Shown here piece after piece: positions 1 through 34,969 of a stretch of 64,000 bases of DNA. The stretch comes from Bacteroidota bacterium (GTDB lineage Bacteria > Bacteroidota > Bacteroidia > NS11-12g > UBA9320), in the NCBI GenBank assembly GCA_024679565.1, contig JAIBDD010000009.1, positions 1,109 through 65,108 on the forward strand, read 5' to 3'. The first letter of the stretch is position 1. The number at the start of each line of letters is the position of its first letter. The position numbers and the translations under genes are program-made. The notes beneath the pieces were generated by a model that made no database searches, was not told where the DNA came from, and saw nothing but the letters and a program-made list of their open reading frames with translations.

Positions 1-520
1 TGGTTGAATTTCTTTCGATTTTTGTTCCGCTTGGTATTTCCTTTTCAGAATTGGGGTAACGCTGTTCTAATACAGGTTCGCTGGCAGCGTCTTTTATACC
101 TGCCAATTGTCTTTCAATCTTATTGCCCACACGAATTCCACGATTTTTCAATATTCTTTCAGCTTGAGTGAATGAGGTTTTACCGGCAAGATCTGGCATT
201 TCCACATCAGGAATTTGCTCTGCGTTTAACACCAAATAGATTTTCCGTCCTGACTTAACTTCAAACCCTGATTCCGGAATTTGATCAATGATAGAGAGCA
301 ACGGCACACCGTCTCTAAACACCGTATCGGTAATTTCATAGTTAAATCCACCATTTTCCAAAACTCTAACCGCTTTATCAATTCGGAGTCCTTCTATTTC
401 AGGCACTTTAACAAGGTCTTGACTGTGTTTCGTGTAAATATGAATAAATAGTAAAACACCACCCACCAATACAAGTGTTGTCAATGCTATGAAAACAATA
501 GACCTAAAGGTTTTTTTCAT
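1..520 (-). CDS. PASTA domain-containing protein, partial (N-terminal part; C-terminus lies off the window start)
   Basis: Reverse complement of 520..1 reads MKKTFRSIVFIALTTLVLVGGVLLFIHIYTKHSQDLVKVPEIEGLRIDKAVRVLENGGFNYEITDTVFRDG..., giving a signal/TM segment followed by PASTA-like V-P-x-x-x-G repeats. The frame stays open to position 1. Not in the ORF track because it runs off the edge. Confidence 0.6.
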   Translation of the reverse strand, partial: MKKTFRSIVFIALTTLVLVGGVLLFIHIYTKHSQDLVKVPEIEGLRIDKAVRVLENGGFNYEITDTVFRDGVPLLSIIDQIPESGFEVKSGRKIYLVLNAEQIPDVEMPDLAGKTSFTQAERILKNRGIRVGNKIERQLAGIKDAASEPVLEQRYPNSEKEIPSGTKIERNST

Positions 521-3192
521 ACGGCTAAATTATGTCTTAATCGTTGCTGACCAAAGGTTAATATTTCATCAATAAAATCAAAAGGCTTGTACCCGTTGAT
601 TGCTGCTTGATGGTAAATACATGTTGCCGGCGTCATACCTGGCAAAGAATTAATTTCAATAATGACTACCTCGACCCGTCTATCTTCGAAGATGCGCACA
701 AATGCATCAATACGGCAATACCCTTGTACGTTTAAGCACTTGGCCACTTTTTCAAATTCCTGACGCACAACCTCACTGACGTGCGTGTTTAATTCTTTGT
801 TTTGCGAAAACCGTGCAGGTGTAATATTCTGCCCCTCGCCTGCCAAAAATTTCTCAGCCAACGACAAGATTTCACCTTCGGCCAACGCTTCGGAAGGTTC
901 AAAGATCTCATACACAAGCTCTCCTTCGTCGTATTTGGTTAATAATCCACCTGTAATTTCAAGGAAATTTTGTGCTTCTTCATGATCAATAAACTGCTCC
1001 ACCAAAAAATAATCTTTGGCAGGAAACTCTTCTTTTTCTTGAATTTCTAATGTTTCCTTTTGCGCAGTGCTGATTGTTGAATTCCCTCTAAAAGTGGCTT
1101 CCGCATAGGCTTCAAGTGCTTCTATAGATTTTAATTTCTTTACTGCGCTACTACAGCCCTCGTCTGAGGGTTTCGCAATCAGTGGGAACTTCATCGATTG
1201 AGCCTCTTTCAACACATTATCCTTCTCAGATTCCCAAGAATATTTTTGCACCAACGCCCCATCCGCAACAAGAAATCCATTTTCTCGAAGGATGTTATTG
1301 GTTTTAAACTTGTCTATGGTTGTAGAGGATGATGCAACATCACTACCATTATAAGGCAAGTTTAGCGCATCCAGATGTTTTTGCACCTGACCATCTTCAC
1401 CAGGTCTACCATGTAAAGCGATAAACACAGTTTCGCAGATTGATGTTAGATCGGTATAGGAAATCTTTTGGGGCTCAAACACTGGAGGTGTTTCGGTGTA
1501 CTTTTCTGTTATTGCCTTCGCCTCATTGATAATCTTTGTAATTATTGGGGCATGATGATAGGCCTCCACTTTTGCCTTAATATCGTCTGCATTGTCTTTT
1601 AACATGACATTAATTGGCAACACATAAAGATGATGGTCACCGTCCTTCCCAGTTAAAAATACTGGGATTGGTTGGTATTTGCCCGACGAGGAAAGCTTCT
1701 CAAATATATTTCTACCGCTTTCAACAGAAATATGTCTTTCTGTTGAATAGCCGCCCATTATAATCGCAACGTTTTGTTTGGCGTTTTTTTGTGATGCATT
1801 CTTCACCAACTGCTTGTCAAGACGCTCCAACATCTCTGATTTCATAACCATCGATGGAATCGTATGAATTCTTTCTGCAATTGACGTTCGAATCAAGTAG
1901 GTTAAAAACTGACTGGGATTGAGCCCAATTTCTGCAGCTTGATGAAAGAAAAAAGACGACGGCATCATGCCTGACGTTGTGTTTGGATCATTCAAGAATA
2001 TTTCACCTTCATTGGTGTAAAACCCGTCAATTCTAGCATAAACGTTAAAACCGAAGTCGGTAAAAAGCTGCGAACACGATTGACGAATCTTCTCAATCTC
2101 TACATCTGGCAACTCTATAGGTGTAATCTTGCGAGACAACCCAGGTAGATATTTGGATTTATAATCGAAAAATGCGGTAGACTTTGCTATTTCTGTAGGC
2201 GGTAAAGCAATTACTTTTCCTGATTCGTCTTGAACCACGATACAGCTAAACTCCTTTCCAGAAATCATGCTTTCCACCACCACTTCTAATTCTCCCCTAA
2301 CCGCTTGAAGTCGGATTATGGATTTGGTTTCAAATCCCTTGTTTAAAAATTCAAGTGCAGCTTCTGGATGAAAAATAAGTTGATTGTCCATGATGATTGG
2401 GAATCCTAATGAACTCCTAATATCCGATAGGTCCCGTATAAACTGAACCTGGTCCATTTGACCCCATTCTTCAGCGCGTATTTCTGTTTCAAAAAGGCTG
2501 TTGTTAACGGCTTCTCTAAATATTGAAAAATCCGCTTCTTTGACAATGTTAACGCCAATGGAAGAGCCTTGGTTGGCAGACTTTACAACAAGTGGAAATC
2601 CTACTTGGTCTTTTGCGTTTTCATAAAACCCTCGTGGGTCGTTTGCCCATTGGTCTTTGGTTAAGCGTAAATATTTCGGCCCCGGGTAGCCTTTGTCCAT
2701 CATCCAATCTTTCTGTACGGCTTTGTTCATACCGAGAGCTGAAGGCAGGATTCCTGAACCTGAATAAGGTATTCCATACCATTCGAGCAAGCCTTGAACG
2801 TTACCGTCTTCTCCCCGTTCGCCGTGCAACGCAAGAAATGCAAAATCTATTTGACTGGATAATTTACTTGGTTCGATTACCTCCCCAATTTCCGTAAGCA
2901 TTTTTAAACGGTCGACTTGGGAAAGCTCAATACTTTCAGAGTAGATTTGATAATCGTTAGGTGACGTAGGTAAAAAGGAAACAGGCGGATAAAAATCTCT
3001 TATTGTTCCTCTATAGATATACTGCCACTTTAGTGACACCAGGTTACCAAACTCATCAACAAATATGGCCACTGGTTCAAACAGCTCTTTGTCCAAATTA
3101 TCATACACGGTTCTTCCTCCAGCAAACGAAACTTCTCGTTCACGTGAACTACCTCCGAAAAATATCCCAACTTTAATACGATGTGAACTCAC
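517..3192 (-). CDS. Tandem (duplicated) D-alanine--D-alanine ligase-like ATP-grasp protein, 891 aa
   Basis: Two complete Ddl-like halves. Half 1: KVGIFFGGSSREREVS...LALHGERGEDGNVQGLLE...VKSANQGSSIGVNIV. Half 2: NVAIIMGGYSTERHISVESG...IALHGRPGEDGQVQKHLD...AKPSDEGCSSAVKKL. GTG start. The second half has a diverged glycine-rich loop. Confidence 0.7.
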   Translation of the reverse strand: MSSHRIKVGIFFGGSSREREVSFAGGRTVYDNLDKELFEPVAIFVDEFGNLVSLKWQYIYRGTIRDFYPPVSFLPTSPNDYQIYSESIELSQVDRLKMLTEIGEVIEPSKLSSQIDFAFLALHGERGEDGNVQGLLEWYGIPYSGSGILPSALGMNKAVQKDWMMDKGYPGPKYLRLTKDQWANDPRGFYENAKDQVGFPLVVKSANQGSSIGVNIVKEADFSIFREAVNNSLFETEIRAEEWGQMDQVQFIRDLSDIRSSLGFPIIMDNQLIFHPEAALEFLNKGFETKSIIRLQAVRGELEVVVESMISGKEFSCIVVQDESGKVIALPPTEIAKSTAFFDYKSKYLPGLSRKITPIELPDVEIEKIRQSCSQLFTDFGFNVYARIDGFYTNEGEIFLNDPNTTSGMMPSSFFFHQAAEIGLNPSQFLTYLIRTSIAERIHTIPSMVMKSEMLERLDKQLVKNASQKNAKQNVAIIMGGYSTERHISVESGRNIFEKLSSSGKYQPIPVFLTGKDGDHHLYVLPINVMLKDNADDIKAKVEAYHHAPIITKIINEAKAITEKYTETPPVFEPQKISYTDLTSICETVFIALHGRPGEDGQVQKHLDALNLPYNGSDVASSSTTIDKFKTNNILRENGFLVADGALVQKYSWESEKDNVLKEAQSMKFPLIAKPSDEGCSSAVKKLKSIEALEAYAEATFRGNSTISTAQKETLEIQEKEEFPAKDYFLVEQFIDHEEAQNFLEITGGLLTKYDEGELVYEIFEPSEALAEGEILSLAEKFLAGEGQNITPARFSQNKELNTHVSEVVRQEFEKVAKCLNVQGYCRIDAFVRIFEDRRVEVVIIEINSLPGMTPATCIYHQAAINGYKPFDFIDEILTFGQQRLRHNLAV

Positions 3193-3355
3193 TTATTTAC
3201 GTGTTGTAGGCATTAACTATCGCCTGATTGTCAATTCATTAACTAACAACTGATGTCTTTTGTTGTTTATCAATTCACTTTATCTTGAATTTGATTAAAC
3301 TTGCAGACTTCCTTGTTGGAACAATAATTGAAATCTATCTTAACAAAAACAAGAA

Positions 3356-3919
3356 ATGAAGAATATAGTTATCGCCATTACCATTTGCTTAACAGCTATA
3401 GCCGCAAAGGCTGATGTAAAAGACAGTACAACAGCTAAACAAACATTACCTGCTGTTACTTTAAAGAACACTGAGGGTAAAAATGTTGATGTTTCAGAAT
3501 ATGCAAAGAATGGCAAAATCACGATTATATCTTTTTGGGCTACATGGTGTAAACCTTGTATCAAAGAATTAAGAAACCTTAACGACTTACTTGACGATTG
3601 GATTGAAGATTATAATGTTGAGCTCGTAGCGGTGTCTGTAGACGACAGTAGAAACTCAGCACGGGTAAAACCTTTCTCTGACGGACAAGGATGGGACTTC
3701 GATATATTATTAGATCCAAACGGAGAACTACAAAGAGATTTGAATGTTACCAATCCTCCTGTGACACTTCTTGTTGACCAAAACGGCAAAATCGTATACA
3801 CGCATACAGGATACCTCGAAGGCGATGAACTAGATTTAGAAGACAAAATCATCGAACTACAAGACAACGACAAGGTTGAAGAAGTAGAGCAAGAGGATAC
3901 GGATGTAGACAAAGAATAG
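3356..3919 (+). CDS. TlpA/ResA-like thiol:disulfide oxidoreductase (thioredoxin fold, secreted)
   Basis: N-terminal signal peptide, WCKPC active-site motif, and an acidic C-terminal tail. Confidence 0.75.
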   Translation: MKNIVIAITICLTAIAAKADVKDSTTAKQTLPAVTLKNTEGKNVDVSEYAKNGKITIISFWATWCKPCIKELRNLNDLLDDWIEDYNVELVAVSVDDSRNSARVKPFSDGQGWDFDILLDPNGELQRDLNVTNPPVTLLVDQNGKIVYTHTGYLEGDELDLEDKIIELQDNDKVEEVEQEDTDVDKE

Positions 3920-3934
3920 ATTCCAATGGAATAT

Positions 3935-3967
3935 AAAAAAGGCACGCATTACATCGTGCCTTTTTTT
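3935..3967. terminator. Bidirectional Rho-independent terminator between convergent tlpA-like gene and uvrA
   Basis: A6 (3935-3940), then stem GGCACG (3941-3946), 8-nt loop, CGTGCC (3955-3960), then T7 (3961-3967). Confidence 0.6.
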
Positions 3968-6851
3968 ATGCCTTTTTTAAAGCTGGATTCAAAAACCCAC
4001 CTTCCAATTTAGTTTTTAGAAACTTCCCAGTATGGGTATCGCTTTTTGCCAAGTCTTCAGGTGTTCCTTCAAACACCACTTGTCCACCAGCTTTACCGCC
4101 ATCAGGGCCAAGGTCTATAACCCAATCAGCAGACTTTACAACGTCCAAATTGTGTTCAATGGTGATTACGGTATTGCCACTATCAACCAATGCGTTCAAT
4201 GACTTTAGTAGCTTTTGAATATCGTGGAAGTGCAAGCCTGTAGTTGGCTCATCAAAGATGAACAGGGTATGCGTTTGACTATTATTTTTTCCTAAAAATG
4301 AAGCCAGTTTGATTCTTTGAGCCTCACCACCACTTAAGGTATTAGACGACTGCCCCAAAGAAACGTATCCCAATCCAACATCTTGAAGTGGTTTCAATCG
4401 TTTCAGGATCAACGATACGTCTTTAAAAAAGTCCATTGCGTCATCAACAGTCATGGACAACACATCATGAATGCTTTTACCGTTATACGTAACCTCTAAA
4501 ACTTCCTGCTTAAAACGTTTACCGCCACAAACCTCACAAGGCAAATGCAAGTCTGCCATAAACTGCATTGCTATAACCTCTTCTCCTTCGCCTTTGCAAT
4601 TGTCGCACCTGCCACCCTCAACGTTAAAAGAAAAGATAGAGCCTTTATACCCGCGTTGTTTCGACAACACTTGTTCGGCAAACAGGTCTCGTATGGCATC
4701 GTATGCTTTTACATAAGTAACCGGATTGGAACGTGAAGACTTTCCAATCGGATTTTGATCAATCATTTCAACCGCTTGAATCGTTTTTATATCGCCAACA
4801 ATACCGTCTGATTCGCCTGGTTTGATACCGGCGTATTGATCGAGTGATCTTAACATCAATGGATAAAAAACACCCTTGATTAAACTCGTTTTCCCAGAAC
4901 CAGAAACACCAGTGACAACGGTTAATGCCGACAACGGAATTTTTGTGGTTACCCGTTGTAGATTATTAAACCGGACATTTTTGACTTCAACAAAATTATT
5001 CCACTTACGTCTTTGCTCTGGGATTTTTATCTCTCGCACATTATTCAGGAATTCAGAAGTTAACGTACTTGACGACATCATATCGCTGAACGTACCATTA
5101 AACACGACTTCCCCTCCATTGGTTCCAGCAAAAGGTCCAATGTCTATTAATTCGTCGGCAGAGTTCATGAGTTCTTCATCATGCTCTACCACAACGACTG
5201 TGTTACCAGCCTTTTGCAATTTCTTTAATACCTTTATCAATCGCTCGGTGTCGCGCGAGTGCAAACCGATGCTAGGTTCGTCTAAGATGTATGTTGACCC
5301 AACTAAACTACTTCCAAGAGAAGTTGCTAAATTGATTCGTTGAGATTCTCCTCCAGACAAACTATTCGACAAACGATTTAAGCCGAGATACCCAAGTCCA
5401 ACATCTGACAGAAAGTCTAAACGCGCATATATTTCAGTCAATAATCGACTGGCTATCTTTTGATCTGTTTTACTAAAGCTAAATACTTGAAAAAAAGATT
5501 TTGCTTCATCTACCGTTAAAAGCAATACCTCCGACAAGGATACTTTATTTGGTGTATCTCGTGAATGAAACGGTAGTTCTGTTTCACTAACAATCTTCAC
5601 AAAATTGGAGTCATGCCTTAACCGTGTGCCTTTACAATCAGGGCAGATTGTTCTCCCACGGTATTTCGCGAGCATCACTCGATATTGAATTTTGTATGAA
5701 CTCTCTTGTAAAAACTTCACAAAAACATTGATACCTTCAACATTATCGTCACCTTGCCATAAAAGGTCCTTCTCCGATTCTGACAATTCCAAATAGGGTT
5801 TATGAATGGGGAACTTTTCAGGATCCACATTTTTCATAAAAGCCTTTTTCCATTTACTTAACGATTCACCACGCCAAGGTGCAACAGCTCCTTCAAATAA
5901 AGACAAGCTGCTGTCTGGTATCACTAAAGATTCGTCAATACCTATTATCGTGCCAAAACCTTGACACGTTTTACACGCACCATAAGGGTTATTGAAACTC
6001 AAAAAGTTAATCGTAGGTCGTTCAAATTGCATACCGTCCAATTCAAATAAATTGGAGAACTCAGTTTGCGATGTTGCATCACCTGTTTTAATCTGAATGG
6101 TTAATATTCCTTTACCTTCAAAAAAAGCCGTTTGCACCGAATCACTCAAGCGCTGCAAATACTCCTCATCGGTTTTGGATTCCACTAATACGCGATCAAT
6201 CAAAAGAAACAAGTCTTTACTGCGTACTTTAGTTTCTTTAAAATCTGAAATTTTGACTACTTGGTCTTTATACAGGAGTCTACTGTAGCCTTTTTGTACT
6301 TCTAAATCCAGTACCTCAACCAGCTCCTTTGCATTTTCGAAAGGAATAGAAGTCAGGATATACACCTGATCATCCGGATTGGCCTCGTTTAAAATATGGT
6401 CTACTACATTCTGCGGTGTATGGCACTTCACTTCTCCTCCAGAAATTGGTGAAAACGTTTTTCCTACACGGGTAAATAGTAGTTTTAAGTAATCGTAAAT
6501 CTCTGTTGACGTAGCAACGGTAGATCGCGGGTTACGCGTATTCACCTTTTGTTCAATCGCTACACAAGGCGTTAAACCTTTTATATGATCCACTTCTGGT
6601 TTGTCAAGCTTACCAAGAAACTGCCGTGCATAGGACGATAAACTTTCTACATATCTACGCTGCCCTTCTGCGTACAAGGTGTCAAAAACAAGCGACGACT
6701 TACCAGAGCCACTAACTCCTGTAACAACGGTAAATTTATTTCGCTTAATCTGCACATCAATGTTCTTTAGATTGTGCATCCTCGCCCCAACAATATCTAT
6801 TACTTTTTCAGATTTGTATCTCATGATTTTACTAACAACAAAATAACTCAA
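3966..6851 (-). CDS. uvrA: Excinuclease ABC subunit A
   Basis: 961 aa. Two ABC ATPase modules with Walker [10 protein letters not shown](L) repeated, zinc-finger Cys clusters (CxxC), and LSGGE signature motifs. Confidence 0.95.
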
Positions 6852-7010
6852 TTGCTTTGTTTTTTAATCTAGATGATTGGAATAATATTTTGAAATTCGA
6901 ATTCAATTCGCTATCTTAGTATTTCATTTAAAGCACAAAAGCCTATACAGTATACCTCTACTCTACAATTTTTATTTACAATCGACTGATTACCAGTCAC
7001 GTAACACATT

Positions 7011-7017
7011 AGGAGGT
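7011..7017 (+). promoter_or_regulatory. Strong Shine-Dalgarno-like AGGAGGT, 4 nt upstream of the ECF sigma ATG
   Basis: Sequence taggaggtatatATG. This is unusual because Bacteroidota genes generally lack SD sequences. Confidence 0.4.
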
Positions 7018-7021
7018 ATAT

Positions 7022-7600
7022 ATGAGCGAACAAATCAAAGACCGTGCTTTAATCAAGCAGTACATTCAAGGTAATGAAGCATGTTTAGAAATGCTTATCA
7101 ATAAGCATAAAAACAAAGTGTTTACTACGATATTATTAATCGTAAACGACACATACATTGCTGAAGACTTATTCCAAGAAACATTTATCAAGGTTATTAA
7201 AACCTTCAAATCTGGGAAGTACAACGAGGAAGGCAAGTTTTTACCATGGGTTGTGCGCATCGCTCGTAATTTGGCTATTGATCATTTCAGAAAATCTAAA
7301 CGTATGCCTACGATAACTTCTCAAGACGGGGAAGATATTTTTAGGACTATCGAAATTGGCGAAAGCAACAGAGAAGAATCATTCATTCAAAACCAACGAG
7401 ATGATACCGTGAGACAAATCATAAACATGTTACCAGCAGAGCAGAAAGAAGTTCTTGTACTACGTCATTATGGTGATATGAGTTTTAAAGAAATTGCAGA
7501 ACTAACTGGGGTAAGTATAAATACCGCACTGGGAAGAATGCGTTATGCTTTAAATAACATGCGAAAAATTATTTCAGAAAAATCAATAACACTGCAATAA
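7022..7600 (+). CDS. RNA polymerase sigma-70 factor, ECF subfamily
   Basis: 192 aa. Region 2 motif (RIARNLAIDHFRK) and region 4 HTH (SFKEIAELTGVSINTALGRMRYA). Confidence 0.85.
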   Translation: MSEQIKDRALIKQYIQGNEACLEMLINKHKNKVFTTILLIVNDTYIAEDLFQETFIKVIKTFKSGKYNEEGKFLPWVVRIARNLAIDHFRKSKRMPTITSQDGEDIFRTIEIGESNREESFIQNQRDDTVRQIINMLPAEQKEVLVLRHYGDMSFKEIAELTGVSINTALGRMRYALNNMRKIISEKSITLQ

Positions 7601-7646
7601 TTGTGTAATGCCGACGTTCATGAGGTAAAGAAACTAATTTCACTTT

Positions 7647-7880
7647 ATGGATTACAGCTCTACTCTAAATTCTCTTATTCAACTTTCATACTCAGAACTC
7701 ACTAATAATGAGCGCTCTATAGTGCTTGATAAAATGTCTGAATCTGATGAACTGTGTGATACCTTTAGTCAAATTGAACAAATTAAATCCGTTCTTGACA
7801 CTGAAAAATATAGTCCCAATCCAACTTCGGTAAAAATAATTTTAGAAGAATCACAACGTTCTGAATTAGAAATGCACTAG
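7647..7880 (+). CDS. Small hypothetical protein downstream of the ECF sigma (77 aa, no TM segment)
   Basis: ORF immediately after the sigma gene, at the position where an anti-sigma would normally sit. No recognisable motif; its end overlaps the stop of the convergent receiver gene. Confidence 0.3.
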   Translation: MDYSSTLNSLIQLSYSELTNNERSIVLDKMSESDELCDTFSQIEQIKSVLDTEKYSPNPTSVKIILEESQRSELEMH

Positions 7881-8248
7881 ACCATTCCTTCGGCCTGTAG
7901 TATTTCAGAAAGTCTTTCTACCACTAGTGGTTTACATATAAATCCGTGAACGATATCATACGTCTCTGATTTTTGTATGTCTTTGTTATTGATTGATGAA
8001 GACAACATATAGACACGTACTTTTTGCTCAAACTTATTATAGGCATCTAGAAAATCCCAGCCATTCATTTTGGGCATATTGATGTCTAGAAATATCATCT
8101 CTGGTTGTGTACCACTATTCTCTTCAAGCATCTTCAAAGCACTCTCGGCAGACGTAAACGCCTGAACAGGAATGTTATCTGCCACAATACTTATTACCCG
8201 AGTGTTGATCAGATTTTGAATCTCATCGTCGTCAATCAAATAAATCAT
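7877..8248 (-). CDS. Stand-alone response regulator receiver domain protein (CheY-like)
   Basis: 123 aa. N-terminal acidic DDD pocket, phospho-acceptor context FLDINMP, conserved K near the C-terminus. Sits 2 bp downstream of the histidine kinase. Confidence 0.85.
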   Translation of the reverse strand: MIYLIDDDEIQNLINTRVISIVADNIPVQAFTSAESALKMLEENSGTQPEMIFLDINMPKMNGWDFLDAYNKFEQKVRVYMLSSSINNKDIQKSETYDIVHGFICKPLVVERLSEILQAEGMV

Positions 8249-8250
8249 TG

Positions 8251-10719
8251 TTACTTACTAAAGTTCTTAAACGTCACAGTAAAAGTAGTACCATCTCCAT
8301 ATTTAGACTCCACTTTAATTTTACCTTTTAATTTGTCCATCGTCTCTTTAACGATATACAACCCAATTCCAGTTCCTTTCGAATTCGAACTAGCTCTATA
8401 AAACAATTCAAAAATTGCCGTAAGGTGCTCTTTTTCTATACCTATACCGTTGTCGGCCACAGTGATTTTTGCTTGTTTAGCATCAGCAACTACATCGATA
8501 TTTAAAAAACAATCTGGCTTCTCTGGGTCCATATATCTAACCGCATTCGAAACGAGATTATTCATAACAACAGAGAGTCGATTTAAATCTGTAACAAACT
8601 TTCCTGGCTGTTTAACCTTGATAGAAATCGCTAACTTTTCTGCATTTTCCGAGAAACGATATTGATCAACAACTTCATTTACAAATTCATCCAGGTTGAT
8701 TTCATCTTTAGACAAGCCTAGACGAGAATTCCGAGAATAGTCAACAATGCTCTTAATAAACTCATCAAGCTTTTCTAAACTCTTCTCTTGAAGGCCTATA
8801 TAATGTGACGCAGTATCAGAAATCTCTTCCATGCGTATAAGCTTAACCAAGCCCATAACGTTGGCAATAGGTGCTCTCAAATCATGCGCAGCACTGTAGA
8901 CAAATTGATCTAACTCCTGGTTTATCTTAATGAGCTCCTCATTTTGCTTTGTTATTTTTCTTTCTGCGGTTTTACGTTCTGTAATGTCTTCGATAATGGT
9001 AACGTTTCCATAATGATTTCCACCATCATCGTACAACGCACTGGAGGCTGTTTGCGCTACAATTCTTTTACCCGATTTAATTTTGTATTCCTTCTCCACC
9101 GAAACATACCGTTTCAAACCTGAAGCAAAGTCTTCTGATATTTGGTCGTTCAGTTTTCTACAGGAAGGAACCAACATATTATTCTCTTTAATGGTTTGCA
9201 TGTCTTCTTCCGTGTAGCCAAACATCTTCGTAAATGATTCGTTGATTTTCACCATGTCTTTTTCGTAGTTGGTATACACTACTGCCAAGCTATTGCTGTC
9301 AAACATGGTACGGTATCGCTCTTCACTTTCACGTAAGGCTTTTACAGAGTCCTTTAGGTCTGTTATGTCTTGAATCCCATACAACAAATCTCCCTTCCCT
9401 CCTATATCGGTGAAATGAACATTTATATTCAGATTCCGCATCTCGCCATAATTGTTTTTAATCAAAACTTCGCAAGTAAAGCTATCAAGCTTATTCTTAA
9501 TGGCTCCAAATAATTTCGCAGCCAAATCCTCAATTCCTTCATGAATATATCGCAATGGCTCAAAATCTGCTGGGTCCATATCATGCGCTAAACCAAAGAT
9601 ATCCCCCGCCTTAATGTTAAAACGAGTAACCAAACCAATATCCTCTTTATGTTCTTGTATTACTTTGTTGAAGTCATAATTGGCCGCAATCACAGATTTT
9701 ATTAGGTTAGGTGCGCTCACTTCAACCCAACCAATAGAATCACTATTAAAGAAATGCTTATACCGCCGTTCTTGGTCAAGCATCTTATTTTCTGACTCGA
9801 CTTCGTCGGTAATATTTTGGGCATAGATGATAATTCCACCAATAGTTGCTTCATCCACATACCAGGGCTTCACATCCCATCTGCACCACGCCGGATTTCC
9901 GTTTTCGTCTGTGAATTGGTCACGTTTCATACTTGACGGACTCCCTTTAAGCGCTTGCTTATGCTGCAATTTCCAACGTAATGGCGTCTGCGGGTTTAAC
10001 TCATAATGGTTTCTACCGATAATGTCTCTACCGTACTTAGTTGGAAAAGTTTCAATCCATTCGTCGGCAACAAACAAATAATTCATATTGTTGTCGAGCA
10101 TGGCCACGGGCATGGGGCTATCCCTAACAAAAGCACGTAAATAATTCTCTTGTTGCTCTCGTATGGCTTGATTTATATTGCTCTCAAACTTTAATTCATT
10201 TTCTTCAACTTTTTTCGACACATCATGTTTCAGTGAGATATCAATCACACTGCTTCTGATGAATGTTCCGTTTTGTGTAGGTAGTTTAAAAACACTCACT
10301 TCACAAGGCAATAGGGTGCCATTCTTCTGTCGTATCTGCCATTCAAACACAACACGTTTATTGGCCTGAACACATTGTTTTAAATGACTTGTTGCCACTT
10401 CAGTGGCGTCTTTACCATCTTGCATCGAACCAGGACTCAAATTTCCTAGCTCTAATGTTTTAAGCTCCTCAAGCGAATAGCCAAACAAAGCTTCCGCTTT
10501 ATCATTACCCGCAACGTACTTCTTTCGATCAAAATCTAGAATCAATACGGCTTGTGGCGAATTTTCTAAAACAGACCCGATTAGTTTTAAATCCGCATTA
10601 TTTATGGAAGGCGACCCTTCAACAGCATGCTTGGCACGCTGCATGATTAATGCTGTGGTCGAAGGAATTGAAACCATACAGAAGGGTTTGCCATTCAACC
10701 TCAATGTGCGGAATTCCAT
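8251..10719 (-). CDS. Multi-PAS sensor histidine kinase
   Basis: 822 aa. Several PAS/PAC-like blocks, HisKA H-box AAHDLRAPIANV, and HATPase_c G-boxes (DNGIGI, GTGIGL). Confidence 0.9.
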   Translation of the reverse strand: MEFRTLRLNGKPFCMVSIPSTTALIMQRAKHAVEGSPSINNADLKLIGSVLENSPQAVLILDFDRKKYVAGNDKAEALFGYSLEELKTLELGNLSPGSMQDGKDATEVATSHLKQCVQANKRVVFEWQIRQKNGTLLPCEVSVFKLPTQNGTFIRSSVIDISLKHDVSKKVEENELKFESNINQAIREQQENYLRAFVRDSPMPVAMLDNNMNYLFVADEWIETFPTKYGRDIIGRNHYELNPQTPLRWKLQHKQALKGSPSSMKRDQFTDENGNPAWCRWDVKPWYVDEATIGGIIIYAQNITDEVESENKMLDQERRYKHFFNSDSIGWVEVSAPNLIKSVIAANYDFNKVIQEHKEDIGLVTRFNIKAGDIFGLAHDMDPADFEPLRYIHEGIEDLAAKLFGAIKNKLDSFTCEVLIKNNYGEMRNLNINVHFTDIGGKGDLLYGIQDITDLKDSVKALRESEERYRTMFDSNSLAVVYTNYEKDMVKINESFTKMFGYTEEDMQTIKENNMLVPSCRKLNDQISEDFASGLKRYVSVEKEYKIKSGKRIVAQTASSALYDDGGNHYGNVTIIEDITERKTAERKITKQNEELIKINQELDQFVYSAAHDLRAPIANVMGLVKLIRMEEISDTASHYIGLQEKSLEKLDEFIKSIVDYSRNSRLGLSKDEINLDEFVNEVVDQYRFSENAEKLAISIKVKQPGKFVTDLNRLSVVMNNLVSNAVRYMDPEKPDCFLNIDVVADAKQAKITVADNGIGIEKEHLTAIFELFYRASSNSKGTGIGLYIVKETMDKLKGKIKVESKYGDGTTFTVTFKNFSK

Positions 10720-10758
10720 TCCAGTGCTTTTATCGTAAATAAATTCGTCTGTTTCTGA

Positions 10759-10980
10759 CTAAAACACAGTCTGACAGTGATTATCCCAATTTACTTTAAC
10801 GTCTTCAATAGCTAGAAATTCGTCGTACGCATTTCCAAACTGCTGTGTATATGAAGTATTTTGATAAACAGGATCTCGATCGGGATCAATGACAATAATG
10901 GCGTTCGGATTGGTGTCAAACAGCGAACAATACTGCCTAACATTCTCAATCGTCTCAACATTTGGTTGATAGAGACTCAT
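10759..10980 (-). CDS. Short PAS-like fragment ORF immediately upstream of the histidine kinase. It may be a split or frameshifted N-terminus, or a separate small sensor domain
   Basis: 73 aa, 40 bp upstream of the kinase start on the same strand. Sequence resembles the start of a PAS domain (NPNAIIVIDPDRDPVYQN). Confidence 0.3.
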   Translation of the reverse strand: MSLYQPNVETIENVRQYCSLFDTNPNAIIVIDPDRDPVYQNTSYTQQFGNAYDEFLAIEDVKVNWDNHCQTVF

Positions 10981-11107
10981 AGGAATTTATTAATAATTTT
11001 CTTTAAATGTAATATAGTAGTACACCAAAAATAACACATTCAGGATGTTAAAACTAGCTGTTTTAGCAGTTTTTTTGAGGCCTACGAGTTCACTTAAATA
11101 GACGATA

Positions 11108-12049
11108 TTACACCAACAAATGGTGCATAATATCGAGTGCAGCTTTTGCCATTTTGTTGTTCTGATCTATCAATGGGTTGATTTCAGTAATCTCTAAGGC
11201 CGTAATTTTAGGGCTCTTGTAGAGCTGTTCAAGAAGCGACTTGGCATTTTCAAGTGTTAAGCCATTAGGCACACTCGTGCCCGTGCCAACGCTTACCGAC
11301 GGGTCCATAGAATCAACATCAAACGAAATGTATATAAGATCACAATCTTCCAAATATTCTAACGTTTCGGCCGCAACTTGCTCCATAGTTTTGTTCAGTA
11401 ACCGCGCAGGAACGTAGTTGAATATGTTGTTATCATCTATGTCATTCCATTCAGCATCTTCTAGGTCTCTTATGGCAATAAGCGCTAAATCTTTCGGATC
11501 CACTTTGGGGTGAATCTGGTTTTTACCCATATGCGTCAAAGCGTGCCAACTGTTAACCACTTCTACGTTTGGTTCATTAATCGCGTTAGATTCATATCCT
11601 TCACCCAAGCTAGCCCCTAACGGCATTCCATGAACGTTACCACTTGGAGTGGTATAAGGTGTATGCAAATCGGCGTGGGCATCAATCCAAATCACGCCAA
11701 GCCTTTTTGATGGGTTGTGGTCTTTTATCGCAGCAATAGTCCCCAAGGCATTGCTATGGTCTCCTGACAGTATAAATGGGAACTTACCCGCATCTAAGAG
11801 CGGCTGAATGCGTCCAATTAACCTATTGTTTTGCTCTACAATCTCGTTAATGTATTTTGCATTTGGCGTTGTTATAGGATTGCATAAAGCGCCATTAAAA
11901 GTGTCAACGGTTAAGTGCGGAAACTTGCCATAAACCTTATTTCCTGTTTCATTGTCTTGCAATCTGACCGCAAATGGTCCTGTCCCAGCTCCACGTGCTC
12001 CTGCACCTACTTCAGAAGGATTCTCAACTATTACAACATCTCTATTCAT
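11108..12049 (-). CDS. Arginase/agmatinase/formimidoylglutamase family metal-dependent hydrolase
   Basis: SGDHS, DAHADL and SFDVDSMDP manganese-binding motifs. Confidence 0.8.
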   Translation of the reverse strand: MNRDVVIVENPSEVGAGARGAGTGPFAVRLQDNETGNKVYGKFPHLTVDTFNGALCNPITTPNAKYINEIVEQNNRLIGRIQPLLDAGKFPFILSGDHSNALGTIAAIKDHNPSKRLGVIWIDAHADLHTPYTTPSGNVHGMPLGASLGEGYESNAINEPNVEVVNSWHALTHMGKNQIHPKVDPKDLALIAIRDLEDAEWNDIDDNNIFNYVPARLLNKTMEQVAAETLEYLEDCDLIYISFDVDSMDPSVSVGTGTSVPNGLTLENAKSLLEQLYKSPKITALEITEINPLIDQNNKMAKAALDIMHHLLV

Positions 12050-12061
12050 GAATAACTTCTT

Positions 12062-12964
12062 TTACGCACGCATTTTGTGCCTTTTCACCAAAAACGGCAA
12101 TAATACTTGGTCTAGTGGTTTATTGATATCACAGTTAACAAAATCAATCTTGTACTGTGCACATTTATTTTTCAAGTTGGCGTAGAACGACTCAAACTGT
12201 TTGGTATAGGCTTCCTTTACTTCCGATGGGAATAGTTTCACCTTTTCACCAGATTCCAAATCTTCAAAAGTATAGGGTCTGTCTGCAAAGCTAAATTCCT
12301 TTTCAGATTGGTGATCCATAATATGAAACAAGACTACTTCATGCTTGTTAAACTTTAGATGCTGAAGGGCATCAAATAACGCCTCTTCATTATCCCCGTC
12401 AAACATGTCGCTGAATATGACCACCAAGCTTCTTTTGTGTATCCGCTCAGCAATTTCGTGCAACACTGCCGCTACGTTAGTCGTTTTTTGTACCGATTTG
12501 TGATTGTAGCTATTGCTAAGTTCAGTAAGAAGTTGCGCGTGGTGACTGGCTGACGATTTTGCAGGTAAATGGTTTATCACTGAATTGTGAAACAAGGTTA
12601 AACCAACTGCATCTCTTTGTTTTCGCAATAAGTGCATGATTGAAGCCGCTCCAACTACGCCGTATTTAATTTTGTTCTCGTCTTGGTTTGGATAAAACAT
12701 AGACGAAGAAACATCAAGAAGTAACTGACAACGTAGGTTCGTTTCCTCTTCAAATCGTTTCACATACAAACGGCCTGTTCTGGCAAACAACTTCCAATCA
12801 ATATTGCGGGTACTCTCACCACTATTGTATTGTCGATGTTCCGCAAACTCAACAGAAAAACCGTGATACGGACTTTTATGAAGTCCTGTTATAAACCCTT
12901 CAACCACTTGTTTTGCAAGTAATTCTAGGTTTTGAATTCGTACGGTTTCTTTGTTTAAATCCAT
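12062..12964 (-). CDS. DUF58 (vWA-like) domain protein
   Basis: HGFSVEFAEHRQY...LLLDVSSSM signature typical of DUF58 proteins, which usually partner a MoxR ATPase. No MoxR gene is adjacent here. Confidence 0.75.
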   Translation of the reverse strand: MDLNKETVRIQNLELLAKQVVEGFITGLHKSPYHGFSVEFAEHRQYNSGESTRNIDWKLFARTGRLYVKRFEEETNLRCQLLLDVSSSMFYPNQDENKIKYGVVGAASIMHLLRKQRDAVGLTLFHNSVINHLPAKSSASHHAQLLTELSNSYNHKSVQKTTNVAAVLHEIAERIHKRSLVVIFSDMFDGDNEEALFDALQHLKFNKHEVVLFHIMDHQSEKEFSFADRPYTFEDLESGEKVKLFPSEVKEAYTKQFESFYANLKNKCAQYKIDFVNCDINKPLDQVLLPFLVKRHKMRA

Positions 12965-13027
12965 AAAAAAACGATGGCTACAAAAATAACCATCGTTTTA
13001 ACTATAATATTGTTGCTTTGGCTTTAG

Positions 13028-13348
13028 TTATGCCAATTGTGCTTCTAATTTTCCAGAAATTGTACTCTTAGGTACAGCTCCTACTAATTTATCAACTACT
13101 TCTCCGTTTTTAAATACAAGTAAAGTAGGGATACTTCTAATACCGTACTTCATTGGAGTGTTTCTGTTTTCATCAACATTCATTTTGCCGATTTTAACTT
13201 TACCGTCGTACTCACCAGCCAATTCTTCTACAATGGGTCCAATCATTTTACAAGGACCACACCATACTGCCCAGAAGTCTACTAATACAGGAACGTCAGA
13301 ATTTATCACTTCTGCTTCCCAATTGTCGTCATTAAATTCTAATGCCAT
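13028..13348 (-). CDS. trxA: Thioredoxin
   Basis: 106 aa with WCGPCK active site. Confidence 0.92.
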   Translation of the reverse strand: MALEFNDDNWEAEVINSDVPVLVDFWAVWCGPCKMIGPIVEELAGEYDGKVKIGKMNVDENRNTPMKYGIRSIPTLLVFKNGEVVDKLVGAVPKSTISGKLEAQLA

Positions 13349-13393
13349 TATGTTTTGTGTTTATTTCGTTAACAAATCTTTCCTACAAAGGTA

Positions 13394-14770
13394 TTGGTTC
13401 AACAAGAAACACAATATTATTGTTCCATAATTTGTTTTGATAGTGTTATAACGCCTCTTTATTTGAAGACATCCAACCTTACTTTCGCCCATATCCTTTT
13501 AATAGGTATTCTTATTTCGCTGTTTGCATGCAAACCTGACAAATCGCGCAAAGAGACTAAAGACGAAAAAATAAGAAAAGAGCAACCCGTCATTGCTGCC
13601 ATTGATTCATCGTTTCCACATTACGGCTTACGATTGAATAAATATTTCGACCAACTCGACACCTTCAAAGTGCGCAAAAACAGTGTTTTTAGTAACCTGT
13701 TTGACGATTACAATACGGATGATTCTCTGTTATTCGAAGCCATAGGTATTGCCGATACTTTGTACCCAGTCAATAGAATAATAGCGGGTAAACCTGTACA
13801 TATGGTGTATAGGAAGGATAAACGTAAAAAGTCAGCATCTAACTTGGTGTATCATATCAGTGAAACAGACAAACTTATCTTGGGATTTAAGGATTCGGCG
13901 TACGCTTTTATCCATAAAATTCCGTTAGATACCGTTAGAAGAAGTATCTACGCACACATCAACAATACCCTGTATCATAGCATTTTAGCGAGCAACACTT
14001 CTTACGAACTTGGCATCAAAATGTCAGAAGTATTTGCCTGGCAAGTCAATTTCTTCAGAATTGACAAACATGACTTTTTTAAAGTAGTTTTCGACGAATA
14101 TCAAGTTGACGGCAAGGCGGTAGAAATTGGGAAAATTAAAGCGGCTTTGTTCTATCATCGAGGTGATTCCTTTTACGCGTTTCCGTATCAGAAAGGTACA
14201 GATAACGGCTACTTTGATGAAGAAGGGCAGAATCTTAAAAAAGCATTTTTAAAAGCACCATTAAAATATAGTCGGATAAGTTCTAGATATACCAAACGTC
14301 GTTTCCATCCTGTGCAAAAAAGATGGAAAGCGCACCTAGGTACAGATTACGCTGCACCGAGAGGCACACCTATCCGAACAGTTGGAGATGGAAAAATTAT
14401 TGCCGCCAGTTATTCTCGTGGGAATGGGCGCTATGTTAAAGTCAAACACAATAGTAAGTACACTACGCAATACTTGCACATGAGTCGGATTGCCAAAGGC
14501 ATCAAGAAAGGACGACATGTAAACCAAGGGGAAGTCATCGGATATGTAGGTAGCACCGGATTAGCAACAGGACCCCATCTTTGTTTTAGGTTTTGGGACA
14601 ACGGCGTGCAAGTAGATCCTTTTAAAATTAAAGCACCACCGACTACGCCAGTTTCACCTTCTAATATGAGTGATTTTAAACAATTGGCTGATATTGGTAG
14701 AAGCGAATTAAACCAAATTCATTTGTCTGTTTCTGACTCCACTGCAATTTCTAAAGACAAAGTCGACTGA
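13394..14770 (+). CDS. M23 family metallopeptidase (lipoprotein-like N-terminus)
   Basis: HLGTDYAAPRGTPI...GSTGLATGPHLCF, i.e. the HxxxD and HxH zinc motifs of LytM/M23. The N-terminal start is uncertain; ILLIGILISLFAC looks like a lipobox. Confidence 0.8.
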   Translation: MVQQETQYYCSIICFDSVITPLYLKTSNLTFAHILLIGILISLFACKPDKSRKETKDEKIRKEQPVIAAIDSSFPHYGLRLNKYFDQLDTFKVRKNSVFSNLFDDYNTDDSLLFEAIGIADTLYPVNRIIAGKPVHMVYRKDKRKKSASNLVYHISETDKLILGFKDSAYAFIHKIPLDTVRRSIYAHINNTLYHSILASNTSYELGIKMSEVFAWQVNFFRIDKHDFFKVVFDEYQVDGKAVEIGKIKAALFYHRGDSFYAFPYQKGTDNGYFDEEGQNLKKAFLKAPLKYSRISSRYTKRRFHPVQKRWKAHLGTDYAAPRGTPIRTVGDGKIIAASYSRGNGRYVKVKHNSKYTTQYLHMSRIAKGIKKGRHVNQGEVIGYVGSTGLATGPHLCFRFWDNGVQVDPFKIKAPPTTPVSPSNMSDFKQLADIGRSELNQIHLSVSDSTAISKDKVD

Positions 14771-16595: not shown

Positions 16596-16670
16596 TGGTA
16601 CAAAGAACGATTTTTTTTAAGTTTCTGATACAGATTCAAGATGTGGATGATTAAAAATGTATAGGAAGCG

Positions 16671-16678
16671 TATTTTTG
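16671..16678 (+). promoter_or_regulatory. Bacteroidota sigma-A -7 box (TATTTTTG, matching TAnnTTTG) upstream of the cyclase gene
   Basis: The ORF-track TTG start at 16676 is the TTTG of this box. The real start is more likely ATG at 16691. Confidence 0.45.
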
Positions 16679-16690
16679 AGACTTTCATCT

Positions 16691-18444: not shown

Positions 18445-18513
18445 TTTGATTGAACAACGGCACTAGCTAAGTTCTGCATAACTTTATAAAAGCCCAAAAA
18501 TATCCTAAAAAAA

Positions 18514-18544
18514 AAGTCACTCCGATTATGCATCGAAGTGACTT
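18514..18544. terminator. Hairpin terminator downstream of the minus-strand T9SS gene
   Basis: Stem AAGTCACT (18514-18521) pairs with AGTGACTT (18537-18544) around a 15-nt loop. It is preceded by A9 on the plus strand, which gives a U-tract for the minus-strand transcript. The long loop lowers confidence. Confidence 0.4.
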
Positions 18545-18566
18545 AGAATTAAGTTTTCTTTATTGT

Positions 18567-21943: not shown

Positions 21944-22018
21944 GCGTCTAGTCAATGTGACATTTACCATTAAAACTTTTTCACTTTTTATTTTTAATCA
22001 TTCTAAATAAAAATAATT

Positions 22019-23767: not shown

Positions 23768-23770
23768 TTT

Positions 23771-27726: not shown

Positions 27727-27757
27727 TTTGAGACCGAAAAAGTAGCTAATTTTTTTA

Positions 27758-28492: not shown

Positions 28493-28510
28493 TTTTTTAC
28501 ATTTGAGAAG

Positions 28511-29730: not shown

Positions 29731-29752
29731 TTTGGAGCGCTACACCGGAAAA

Positions 29753-34965: not shown

Positions 34966-34969
34966 TTGG

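What the first reader, a model, noticed from the sequence alone, without database searches (positions are those of the whole stretch)
517..3192. Single 891-aa polypeptide made of two complete D-Ala-D-Ala-ligase-like modules
Canonical Ddl is ~300-370 aa; here two full Ddl-type ATP-grasp units are fused head-to-tail. The first half keeps a canonical glycine-rich loop (KSANQGSSIGV). The second half reads KPSDEGCSSAV, which is diverged and suggests sub-functionalisation: a regulatory or non-catalytic half, or a different ligation specificity. The gene sits next to a PASTA-domain protein, which ties it to the cell wall.
Basis: seen in the sequence. Interest (0 to 1): 0.6.

Follow-up and report, generated by a model that had tools for sequence, protein, structure and literature searches.

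The report
Conserved two-module D-alanine ligase fusion
One 891-residue gene really does encode two complete but different D-alanine–D-alanine ligase units. This fused form is common in the public data for many Bacteroidota and some other bacteria, and its second unit carries a fixed set of active-site changes whose biochemical meaning nobody seems to have tested.

Summary
Window 517..3192 (-) is one uninterrupted 891-aa ORF with two full Ddl units that are 24% identical to each other.

It is not an oddity of this genome. At least 119 full-length homologues (55-100% identity) exist, and genome hits include Flammeovirga and MAGs labelled Chitinophagales, Saprospiraceae, Sphingobacteriales and Cytophagaceae. 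Two more distant tandem families exist, one of them in Patescibacteria.

In an NJ tree all first modules, all second modules and ordinary single Ddl form three separate clades (bootstrap 86, 100 and 97). Each clade has its own active-site signature in E. coli DdlB numbering:
- Ordinary single Ddl: S150, Y216, E270, S281, L282.
- First module: the same, except D270 and F282.
- Second module: C150, F216, T281 and C/V/A282.

Both modules keep every ATP, Mg and transition-state residue. The second half is therefore not a dead domain here, and it is slightly more conserved than the first.

The PASTA membrane protein is a real partner. The genes overlap by ATGA, the pair is syntenic in 35 of 44 tandem loci against 0 of 36 single-Ddl loci, and relatives fuse them into one protein. 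Another relative is fused to MurF.

Plant DDL is also reported as a tandem fusion. I found no paper on the bacterial form. The substrate specificity of module 2 is unresolved.

The parts
517..3192 (-). Complete tandem-Ddl ORF, 891 aa, GTG start, TGA stop
1798..3192 (-). Module 1 (H1, 'N-type', aa 1-465). It keeps E18, H123, K157, K204, S210, K347, Y348, R387, D389, N404, G408 and S413. It has D402 in place of E270 and F414 in place of L282.
520..1797 (-). Module 2 (H2, 'C-type', aa 466-891). It keeps E485, H594, K628, K674, E732, E745, K781, R827, D829, E846, N848 and G852. It has C680 (S150), F782 (Y216), T857 (S281) and C858 (L282).
2551..2583 (-). H1 phosphate/glycine-rich loop KSANQGSSIGV (aa 204-214)
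1141..1173 (-). H2 loop KPSDEGCSSAV (aa 674-684). C680 is invariant.
2137..2172 (-). H1 omega loop FFDYKSKYLPGL (aa 341-352) with K347-Y348. Low pLDDT, as expected for a mobile lid.
829..882 (-). H2 omega loop AEGEILSLAEKFLAGEGQ (aa 771-788) with K781-F782. Low pLDDT.
1792..1917 (-). Inter-module connector (aa 426-467), predicted as two long helices at pLDDT of about 90
2302..2499 (-). H1-specific insert of about 65 aa (aa 232-297) between the central and C-terminal domains. It is structured in the model and absent from E. coli DdlB.
2893..3057 (-). H1-specific N-domain insert (aa 46-100) with invariant W56, Y60, G62, D66, F67 and P69
1477..1650 (-). H2-specific N-domain insert (aa 515-572) with the invariant LKDNADDI motif
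1..520 (-). 5' part (173 codons) of the downstream gene. It encodes a single-pass membrane protein with PASTA repeats. Its ATG overlaps the ddl stop (ATGA at 517-520). The gene runs off the window.

Best explanation
The ORF is one real gene encoding a covalent 'heterodimer' of two anciently diverged Ddl paralogues. It is most likely this organism's peptidoglycan D-Ala-D-Ala ligase, supplying MurF.

- **Module 1 (aa 1 to about 445)** keeps the E15/S150/Y216 hydrogen-bond triad and the D-Ala2 carboxylate site. It is predicted to perform the ordinary D-Ala + D-Ala ligation.
- **Module 2 (aa about 470 to 891)** keeps every ATP, Mg2+ and transition-state residue, so it should also be an active ATP-grasp ligase. 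Its substrate environment is rewired (S150C, Y216F, S281T, L282C). It is predicted to differ in nucleophile preference or in kinetic and product control, and is not expected to be inert.
- **Architecture.** A helical connector and family-specific inserts hold the modules in one fixed arrangement. This would replace the homodimer formed by ordinary Ddl.
- **Partner.** The gene is translationally coupled to a single-pass membrane protein with periplasmic PASTA repeats. Together they probably tie dipeptide synthesis to the membrane site of wall synthesis.

**Shown here:** the architecture, residue conservation, phylogenetic pattern, synteny and fusions.
**Inferred:** catalysis by either module, the pseudo-dimer packing, and the role of the PASTA protein.
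For: - **Two complete Ddl units in one frame**.
- **Many full-length homologues** across genome hits from Flammeovirga and from MAGs labelled Cytophagaceae, Chitinophagales, Saprospiraceae and Sphingobacteriales.
- **Catalytic residues.** ATP, Mg and R255-type residues are invariant in both modules in 119 sequences. The module-2 changes C680, F782 and T857 are also invariant.
- **The same two signatures recur** in two distant tandem families (~800 aa and ~720 aa). None of them occurs in 20 canonical single Ddl.
- **NJ tree.** C-modules, N-modules and singles form separate clades with bootstrap 100, 86 and 97 of 100.
- **Conservation.** H2 shows 60.8% mean pairwise identity against 57.9% for H1.
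- **Stand-alone C-type genes exist**, in Ca. Amoebophilus (L040) and as P0171 (L082).
- **Link to the peptidoglycan pathway.** One relative is a Ddl-Ddl-MurF fusion (TIGR01143 319.7 bits against a 288.6 cut-off). The Patescibacteria tandem gene lies beside murB, murC, murG and ftsW.
- **Structure model.** AF2 gives pLDDT 86.3 and pTM 0.87 for all 891 aa. Only the two omega loops are disordered, and the connector is helical. The best PDB folds are all Ddl.
- **PASTA partner.**
  - The two genes overlap by ATGA.
  - The PASTA gene lies downstream in 35 of 44 tandem loci against 0 of 36 single-Ddl loci.
  - In-frame Ddl-Ddl-TM-PASTA fusions occur in L028 and in several 50%-identity clusters.
- **Plant evidence from papers.**
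  - At-DDL and its moss homologue encode a fusion of two putative DDL enzymes, and moss Ddl knockouts could no longer dimerise D-alanine for peptidoglycan (PMC9954125).
  - Moss Ddl is closest to FCB-group homologues (PMC9434261).
Against: - **No enzymology, and no whole-genome check.** I could not test whether a separate single-domain ddl exists elsewhere in this genome. There is none in the 64 kb window.
- **Each half alone falls below NCBIfam's Ddl cut-off.** H1 scores 225.1 and H2 159.4 against 245.65.
- **Module 1 has two invariant non-canonical residues.** E270D sits at a Mg ligand, and L282F sits in the D-Ala2 pocket. So even its specificity is an assumption.
- **Some Ddl-Ddl-PASTA relatives have lost catalytic residues in both modules**. 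The scaffold can therefore persist without catalysis.
- **The pseudo-dimer packing rests only on pTM.** I could not inspect coordinates.
- **The separate PASTA protein has only about 7 cytoplasmic residues.** Direct contact with Ddl is unproven.
Confidence: 0.6

Rival explanations
1. Module 2 has a truly different product. It would act as a depsipeptide or alternative-dipeptide ligase (D-Ala-D-lactate, D-Ala-D-Ser or another D-Ala-D-X), so the cell makes two kinds of precursor termini from one polypeptide.
For: - F782 replaces Y216 invariantly in all three tandem families.
- In lactic acid bacteria this single Phe/Tyr position decides between depsipeptide and dipeptide activity (PMC5996685).
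- S150C removes the third member of the E15/S150/Y216 triad.
- Position 282, which lines the second-substrate pocket, becomes the smaller C, V or A.
Against: - H2 scores 91.5 bits against the 550 cut-off of NCBIfam D_ala_D_lac (NF000206), and far below all Van models.
- No D-lactate dehydrogenase, VanX or VanH-like gene recurs among the neighbours.
- The tandem form is fused to an ordinary MurF in one relative.
- Plants with tandem DDL are reported to make the ordinary pentapeptide (PMC9434261).
Confidence: 0.25
2. Both modules make the same D-Ala-D-Ala. On this view the fusion is a covalently stabilised dimer, and the signature residues are kinetic tuning (Km, product inhibition or cation dependence) with no change of chemistry.
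For: - All chemistry-critical residues are retained in both modules.
- E. coli itself keeps two Ddl isozymes (own knowledge).
- A stand-alone C-type is the ddl-like gene next to PASTA in Ca. Amoebophilus, a lineage said to make peptidoglycan (PMC3486910).
Against: - C150, F216 and T281 stay conserved across three tandem families, down to about 30% identity. Mere tuning would not obviously hold them that tightly.
- Y216F is known to change product spectrum in other Ddl.
Confidence: 0.3
3. Module 2 is a non-catalytic regulatory or scaffold domain (a pseudoenzyme). On this view it serves only as dimer partner for module 1 and as a tether to the PASTA protein.
For: - In several Ddl-Ddl-PASTA fusion clusters the catalytic residues of module 2 are degenerate: P0172, P0183, P0186, P0204, P0215 and P0218.
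- The H2 C-terminus is the point of fusion to the TM-PASTA part.
Against: - In this protein and 118 relatives every catalytic residue of H2 is invariant.
- H2 is more conserved than H1.
- In most of the degenerate relatives module 1 is also degenerate. Those are a separate pseudoenzyme offshoot, not a model for this gene.
- Stand-alone C-type genes keep the full catalytic set.
Confidence: 0.1
4. Artefact: two adjacent ddl genes merged by a sequencing or assembly error.
For: None found.
Against: - The frame is uninterrupted.
- 119 independent homologues have the same length.
- About 40 genome loci carry the same single ORF.
- The connector is a conserved, confidently modelled helix pair.
Confidence: 0.01

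Closest known systems
Canonical single-domain D-alanine--D-alanine ligase (E. coli DdlA/DdlB; PDB 2DLN, 3I12 and others)
   Same: - The domain pair PF01820 + PF07478 is present.
- The fold matches (Foldseek TM 0.77-0.88 to target).
- All ATP, Mg and transition-state residues are present in both modules.
   Different: - Two modules sit in one chain, where the ordinary enzyme is a 300-370 aa homodimer.
- Module 1 has E270D, L282F and two large inserts.
- Module 2 has S150C, Y216F, S281T, L282C and its own inserts.
- Each module alone scores below the NCBIfam cut-off.
Plant DDL (Arabidopsis At-DDL, Physcomitrium PpDDL BAE45860, rice OsDDL)
   Same: [quoted passage not shown]
- Moss Ddl is reported as closest to homologues of the Fibrobacteres-Chlorobi-Bacteroidetes group (PMC9434261).
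- It therefore has the same architecture and is possibly the same lineage.
   Different: It is eukaryotic and plastid-targeted, with no PASTA partner. I could not obtain a plant sequence, so I did not test whether plant DDL carries the N-type and C-type signatures.
D-Ala-D-lactate ligases of intrinsically vancomycin-resistant lactic acid bacteria (Leuconostoc LmDdl2, F261; PDB 1EHI)
   Same: Module 2 has Phe at the position whose Phe/Tyr state decides between depsipeptide and dipeptide synthesis. The 1EHI fold is among the matches.
   Different: - Sequence similarity is low, and module 2 scores far below the NCBIfam D-Ala-D-Lac cut-off.
- S150C, S281T and L282C are additional changes. I did not check them against the LAB enzymes.
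- The hosts are Bacteroidota (own knowledge: Gram-negative).
Other natural fusions of peptidoglycan precursor enzymes (Chlamydia MurC-Ddl, NF011171; MurE-MurF chimeras, PMC10214165)
   Same: These are Rosetta-stone style fusions within the same pathway. Relatives of this protein are fused to MurF.
   Different: This protein has no Mur ligase domain (NF011171 scores 186.5 against a 1015 cut-off). Its fusion joins two diverged copies of the same enzyme.
PASTA-domain sensor proteins (PknB/Stk1 kinases, class B PBPs)
   Same: The partner protein has a TM helix followed by extracytoplasmic PASTA repeats. Its best NCBIfam match is the PASTA part of Stk1 kinases (60.6 bits).
   Different: It has no kinase or transpeptidase domain. 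In the fused relatives the cytoplasmic part is the tandem Ddl itself.

Membership tests
D-alanine--D-alanine ligase (EC 6.3.2.4; TIGR01205 / PF01820+PF07478) | N-terminal Ddl domain followed by an ATP-grasp C-terminal domain | tested here: met
   Both halves have the pair. Both align end to end with E. coli DdlB.
D-alanine--D-alanine ligase (EC 6.3.2.4; TIGR01205 / PF01820+PF07478) | Score above the curated family cut-off | tested here: inconclusive
   The whole protein scores 378.8 against 245.65. Each half alone is below it: H1 225.1 and H2 159.4.
D-alanine--D-alanine ligase (EC 6.3.2.4; TIGR01205 / PF01820+PF07478) | ATP, Mg2+ and transition-state residues K97, K144, E180, E187, K215, R255, D257, E270, N272 (DdlB numbering; roles from own knowledge of DdlB structures) | tested here: met
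   H2 keeps all of them, invariant in 119 sequences. H1 keeps all except the conservative, invariant E270D.
D-alanine--D-alanine ligase (EC 6.3.2.4; TIGR01205 / PF01820+PF07478) | Substrate triad E15/S150/Y216 and D-Ala2 site S281/L282 | tested here: not met
   H1 has E, S, Y and S but F at 282. H2 has E, C, F, T and C. In H2 four of the five positions differ, and three of those changes (C150, F216, T281) are invariant. All 20 canonical single Ddl sampled have S, Y, S and L.
D-alanine--D-alanine ligase (EC 6.3.2.4; TIGR01205 / PF01820+PF07478) | Forms D-Ala-D-Ala from two D-Ala with ATP | not testable with these tools
   Needs enzymology. Indirect support comes from the MurF fusion, the mur-cluster neighbourhood in Patescibacteria and moss genetics.
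D-Ala-D-lactate depsipeptide ligases (LAB type or VanA/B/D type) | Phe (LAB) or the VanA-type omega loop in place of Y216 | tested here: met
   Met for module 2 only: F782 is invariant. The Phe/Tyr rule is from PMC5996685.
D-Ala-D-lactate depsipeptide ligases (LAB type or VanA/B/D type) | Score above the NCBIfam D_ala_D_lac or Van model cut-offs | tested here: not met
   H2 scores 91.5 against 550 for NF000206. It scores 60-74 against 700-775 for the Van models.
D-Ala-D-lactate depsipeptide ligases (LAB type or VanA/B/D type) | Accompanying D-lactate supply or D-Ala-D-Ala removal genes (VanH or LdhD, VanX) | tested here: not met
   None appear among the recurrent neighbours within 5 kb in 43 loci. 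The rest of the genome was not searchable.
Plant-type tandem DDL | Two DDL enzymes fused in one polypeptide | tested here: met
   The architecture is the same.
Plant-type tandem DDL | Sequence orthology, with shared N-type and C-type signatures | not tested
   No plant DDL sequence was obtainable (the supplement holds it as an image). The only basis is the literature statement of FCB-group affinity.
MurC-Ddl bifunctional enzyme (NF011171) | Mur ligase domains N-terminal to Ddl | tested here: not met
   No Mur ligase domain is present. The score is 186.5 against a 1015 cut-off. The JGI label 'UDP-N-acetylmuramate--alanine ligase' on some homologues therefore appears to be a misannotation.

The most novel reading that the evidence does not exclude
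The C-type module may define an unrecognised, ancient Ddl-like enzyme class. Its marks are C150, F216 and T281. On present evidence it is found in Bacteroidota, in Patescibacteria, in the endosymbiont Ca. Amoebophilus and possibly in plants. Its product or regulation would differ from D-Ala-D-Ala synthesis.

The tandem enzyme may also be physically coupled to a periplasmic PASTA sensor. Dipeptide (or depsipeptide) supply would then be adjusted to the state of the wall. This would be a direct sensor-to-enzyme link without a kinase.
Probability: 0.25. Interest if true: 0.8.

Novelty: new variant of a known kind. Interest (0 to 1): 0.55.

Why it matters
- **Drug target.** Ddl is a classic antibiotic target (D-cycloserine) and the enzyme whose reprogramming causes vancomycin resistance. 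In many Bacteroidota lineages and in part of the Patescibacteria the enzyme is a fixed pair of two different modules. Neither module has the textbook active site, so rules learned from E. coli, Staphylococcus and enterococci may not transfer.
- **Testable specificity question.** The invariant Cys/Phe/Thr signature of module 2 sits on the positions known to switch product specificity. This gives a sharp question that can be tested directly.
- **Unusual regulatory layout.** The repeated fusion to a PASTA membrane protein suggests wall status is linked to precursor synthesis. Some of those fusions have lost catalytic residues, which points the same way.
- **Origin of plant DDL.** The bacterial family is the obvious candidate ancestor of the plant tandem DDL, whose two halves have puzzled plant biologists.

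Tried and rejected
1. **A second ddl nearby.** tblastn of the whole protein against the window found only itself. The weak hit at 28550-28651 lies in an unrelated 219-aa protein.
2. **A whole-genome check for another ddl.** Not possible.
3. **Plant DDL sequence.**
   - The At-DDL sequence in the PMC9954125 supplement is an image.
   - Hirano 2016, Machida 2006 and Sato & Takano 2017 are not held.
   - The AFDB libraries were unavailable.
   - P0174 (UniParc) looked like a candidate plant protein but is a truncated homologue with no plant-like transit peptide.
4. **Literature on a bacterial tandem Ddl.** Five searches found nothing relevant. A sixth search failed on query syntax.
5. **Apparent 'stand-alone' H2 proteins P0128 and P0170.** I rejected these as evidence, because their 90% clusters contain 895- and 913-aa members, so they are probably fragments. 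L040 and P0171 are genuine.
6. **Cardinium Table S3.** It lists no ddl at all, so it does not help decide whether a C-type module alone suffices.
7. **First bootstrap run.** It was spoiled by NaN distances. I repeated it with capped distances.
8. **RNA, promoter and terminator scans.** Rfam over the whole window found nothing. The promoter and terminator scans of 1-4000 found nothing above chance near the gene.


Full report
**1.

Window 517..3192 (minus strand) is one uninterrupted ORF of 891 aa. It starts at a GTG directly after an in-frame TAA.

- Pfam finds the Ddl N-terminal domain twice, and the Ddl C-terminal ATP-grasp domain in both halves.
- NCBIfam TIGR01205 scores 378.8 bits against a cut-off of 245.65.
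- The halves (aa 1-465 'H1' and aa 466-891 'H2') align along their full length at 24% identity, E 2e-25.
- PDB sequence and fold searches return only Ddl, VanA and VanG-type ligases, each matching one module.

**2. It is neither an artefact nor a rarity**

A search of the 5.8-billion-protein collection gave 4913 hits at E <= 1e-10. Of the best 120, 119 are 860-920 aa long at 55-100% identity.

A scan of one genome per species returned about 40 loci with the same single ORF. The sources were Flammeovirga isolates and MAGs labelled Cytophagaceae, Flammeovirgaceae, Chitinophagales, Saprospiraceae, Sphingobacteriales, Flavobacteriales and Bacteroidia. The Bacteroidales-labelled locus and 35 loci from other or less precisely labelled lineages had ordinary 300-390 aa Ddl. 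The closest genome is an uncultured Bacteroidia MAG chromosome (L002, 88% identity).

**3. Active-site anatomy**

I mapped residues onto E. coli DdlB, taken from NC_000913.3. The roles of the residues are from my own knowledge of the DdlB structures.

In 119 homologues H1 keeps E15, H63, K97, K144, S150, S151, E180, E187, K215, Y216, R255, D257, N272, G276 and S281, all invariant. E270 is always D, and L282 is always F.

H2 keeps E15, H63, K97, K144, E180, E187, K215, R255, D257, E270, N272 and G276, all invariant. It differs as follows:
- S150 is always C.
- Y216 is always F.
- G153 is A.
- S281 is always T.
- L282 is C or A.

The local alignments around these positions are gapless.

H1 carries inserts at aa 46-100 and aa 232-297. 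H2 carries inserts at aa 515-572 (with an invariant LKDNADDI motif) and aa 704-727.

H2 is slightly more conserved than H1, at 60.8% against 57.9% mean pairwise identity. H2 is therefore not a decaying domain in this family.

**4. The tandem is ancient and has two module types**

An exhaustive HMMER search with H2 alone against 1.84 billion cluster representatives found three tandem families:
- This family, of about 860-950 aa.
- A family of about 740-855 aa. One of its clusters is named Patescibacteria, and its gene lies beside murB, murC, murG and ftsW.
- A family of about 700-750 aa.

In an NJ tree of 77 modules, all second modules form one clade, all first modules another, and 20 canonical single Ddl a third. 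Bootstrap support is 100, 86 and 97 of 100.

The residue signatures agree with the tree:

| Group | 150 | 216 | 270 | 281 | 282 |
|---|---|---|---|---|---|
| Canonical single Ddl (20 of 20) | S | Y | E | S | L |
| First modules | S | Y | D | S | F |
| Second modules | C | F | E | T | C, V or A |

A few members of the two module groups depart from these signatures (for example P0179_N has E at 270, and P0189_C and P0248_C have S at 150).

The simplest reading is one old duplication-fusion. After it, each module fixed its own active-site variant.

**5. Natural experiments among relatives**

- **Stand-alone C-type genes.**
  - One occurs in Ca. Amoebophilus sp. (L040, 436 aa). An unrelated gene lies upstream and a PASTA gene follows it.
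  - P0171 (402 aa, L082) is another.
  - Both keep the full catalytic set and nest inside the Bacteroidota C-module clade.
- **Ddl-Ddl-MurF fusion.** P0223 (1262 aa) scores 319.7 bits on TIGR01143 against a cut-off of 288.6. This links the tandem enzyme to the step that consumes the dipeptide.
- **Ddl-Ddl-linker-TM-PASTA fusions.** These occur in L028 (1241 aa) and in several 50%-identity clusters such as P0122, P0124 and P0127.
- **Degenerate offshoot.** In a subset of those fusions both Ddl modules have lost catalytic residues: P0183, P0186, P0204, P0215 and P0218. This is a pseudoenzyme side branch.

**6. The PASTA neighbour**

In the window the downstream gene's ATG overlaps the ddl stop as ATGA. 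It encodes a short N-terminus, one TM helix and PASTA repeats.

A PASTA-protein gene follows the tandem gene in 35 of 44 tandem loci, and several of the nine misses are contig ends. It follows 0 of 36 single-Ddl loci. The other recurrent neighbours carry no obvious wall-precursor function:
- A protein of about 620 aa, whose L002 example has a Por_Secre_tail (T9SS-type) sorting domain, in 18 loci.
- A TlpA-like thioredoxin in 13 loci.

**7. Structure**

AlphaFold2 with a 58-sequence alignment gives mean pLDDT 86.3 and pTM 0.87 for the whole 891 aa. The only disordered stretches are the two omega loops (aa 341-352 and 771-788). The connector (aa 426-467) is two confident helices, and the family-specific inserts are structured.

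A pTM this high for two modules of about 440 aa implies a defined mutual arrangement. That is my inference. I could not read the coordinates, so I could not test whether this arrangement mimics the Ddl homodimer.

**8. Mechanism**

The best-supported model is a covalent heterodimeric Ddl that feeds MurF. Module 1 would act as the ordinary D-Ala-D-Ala synthetase. Module 2 would be a second active ligase whose first- and second-substrate environment is rewired.

Phe in place of Tyr at position 216 is the very switch that distinguishes depsipeptide from dipeptide ligases in lactic acid bacteria (PMC5996685). A different nucleophile preference is therefore a serious possibility. Against it:
- Module 2 is far below every D-Ala-D-Lac or Van model cut-off.
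- No D-lactate or VanX-type genes recur nearby.

I cannot decide between 'same product, different kinetics' and 'different product'. I rate the pseudoenzyme idea as unlikely for this gene.

**9. Relation to what is known**

Databases already label these proteins Ddl. Some JGI labels call them MurC, apparently wrongly, since no Mur ligase domain is present.

Plant DDL is described as a fusion of two DDL enzymes. Moss Ddl is said to be closest to Fibrobacteres-Chlorobi-Bacteroidetes homologues (PMC9954125 and PMC9434261). I could not obtain a plant sequence to test orthology.

Five literature searches found no description of the bacterial tandem enzyme, its two module signatures or the PASTA and MurF fusions.

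**10. Verdict**

This is a real and conserved feature, and a new variant of a well-known enzyme kind. It is less exotic than a one-off fusion would be, because it recurs across several Bacteroidota lineages in the public data. It is more interesting than a simple duplication, because both modules carry fixed non-canonical active sites and the enzyme is repeatedly wired to a PASTA membrane protein.

Noticed in passing
L028 9998..13723 (Saprospiraceae MAG); also P0122, P0124, P0127: Ddl-Ddl, a low-complexity linker, a TM helix and PASTA repeats lie in one reading frame (1241-1285 aa). This is a natural fusion of the two genes that are separate in the window.
   Followed up: partly
P0183, P0186, P0204, P0215, P0218 (about 1200 aa): These are Ddl-Ddl-PASTA fusions in which both Ddl modules have lost most catalytic residues. 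They look like a pseudoenzyme 'receptor' offshoot of the family.
   Followed up: partly
P0223 (1262 aa): A tandem Ddl of the ~800-aa family is fused to a complete MurF (TIGR01143 319.7 bits against a 288.6 cut-off).
   Followed up: yes
P0232 (987 aa): A GNAT acetyltransferase domain is fused N-terminally to a tandem Ddl.
   Followed up: no
L040 9956..12211 (Ca. Amoebophilus sp. 36-38); L082 6001..7209 (P0171): Stand-alone C-type Ddl modules carry the Cys/Phe/Thr signature. In Amoebophilus the gene is still followed by the PASTA gene. I could not check whether these genomes have any other ddl.
   Followed up: partly
L086 (Patescibacteria MAG GCA_043816685.1) 47..8397: The ~800-aa tandem Ddl sits next to murB, murC, murG and ftsW. 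It is followed by a two-component system.
   Followed up: partly
L002 13455..15368 and 17 other loci: A protein of about 620-640 aa, whose L002 example carries a Por_Secre_tail (T9SS-type) sorting domain, recurs just downstream of the PASTA gene in 18 tandem-Ddl loci. The L002 example has no other Pfam domain.
   Followed up: partly
window 3356..3919 (+), 3966..6851 (-), 7022..7600 (+), 7877..10719 (-): The neighbours of the ddl gene are a TlpA/AhpC-like thiol-disulfide oxidoreductase, uvrA, an ECF-type sigma factor, and a response regulator plus an 822-aa PAS histidine kinase. Only the thioredoxin has a Pfam assignment; the other names are my reading of the translations. A TlpA-like gene recurs upstream in 13 loci. 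A terminator-like hairpin lies at 3935-3966, between the convergent thioredoxin and uvrA genes.
   Followed up: partly
homologues (for example P0003, P0007, P0019): Many JGI records label these tandem Ddl proteins 'UDP-N-acetylmuramate--alanine ligase', although no Mur ligase domain is present. The label probably carries over from the MurC-Ddl orthology group.
   Followed up: yes
window 1..64000: No Rfam family reaches its gathering score anywhere in the 64 kb window.
   Followed up: yes
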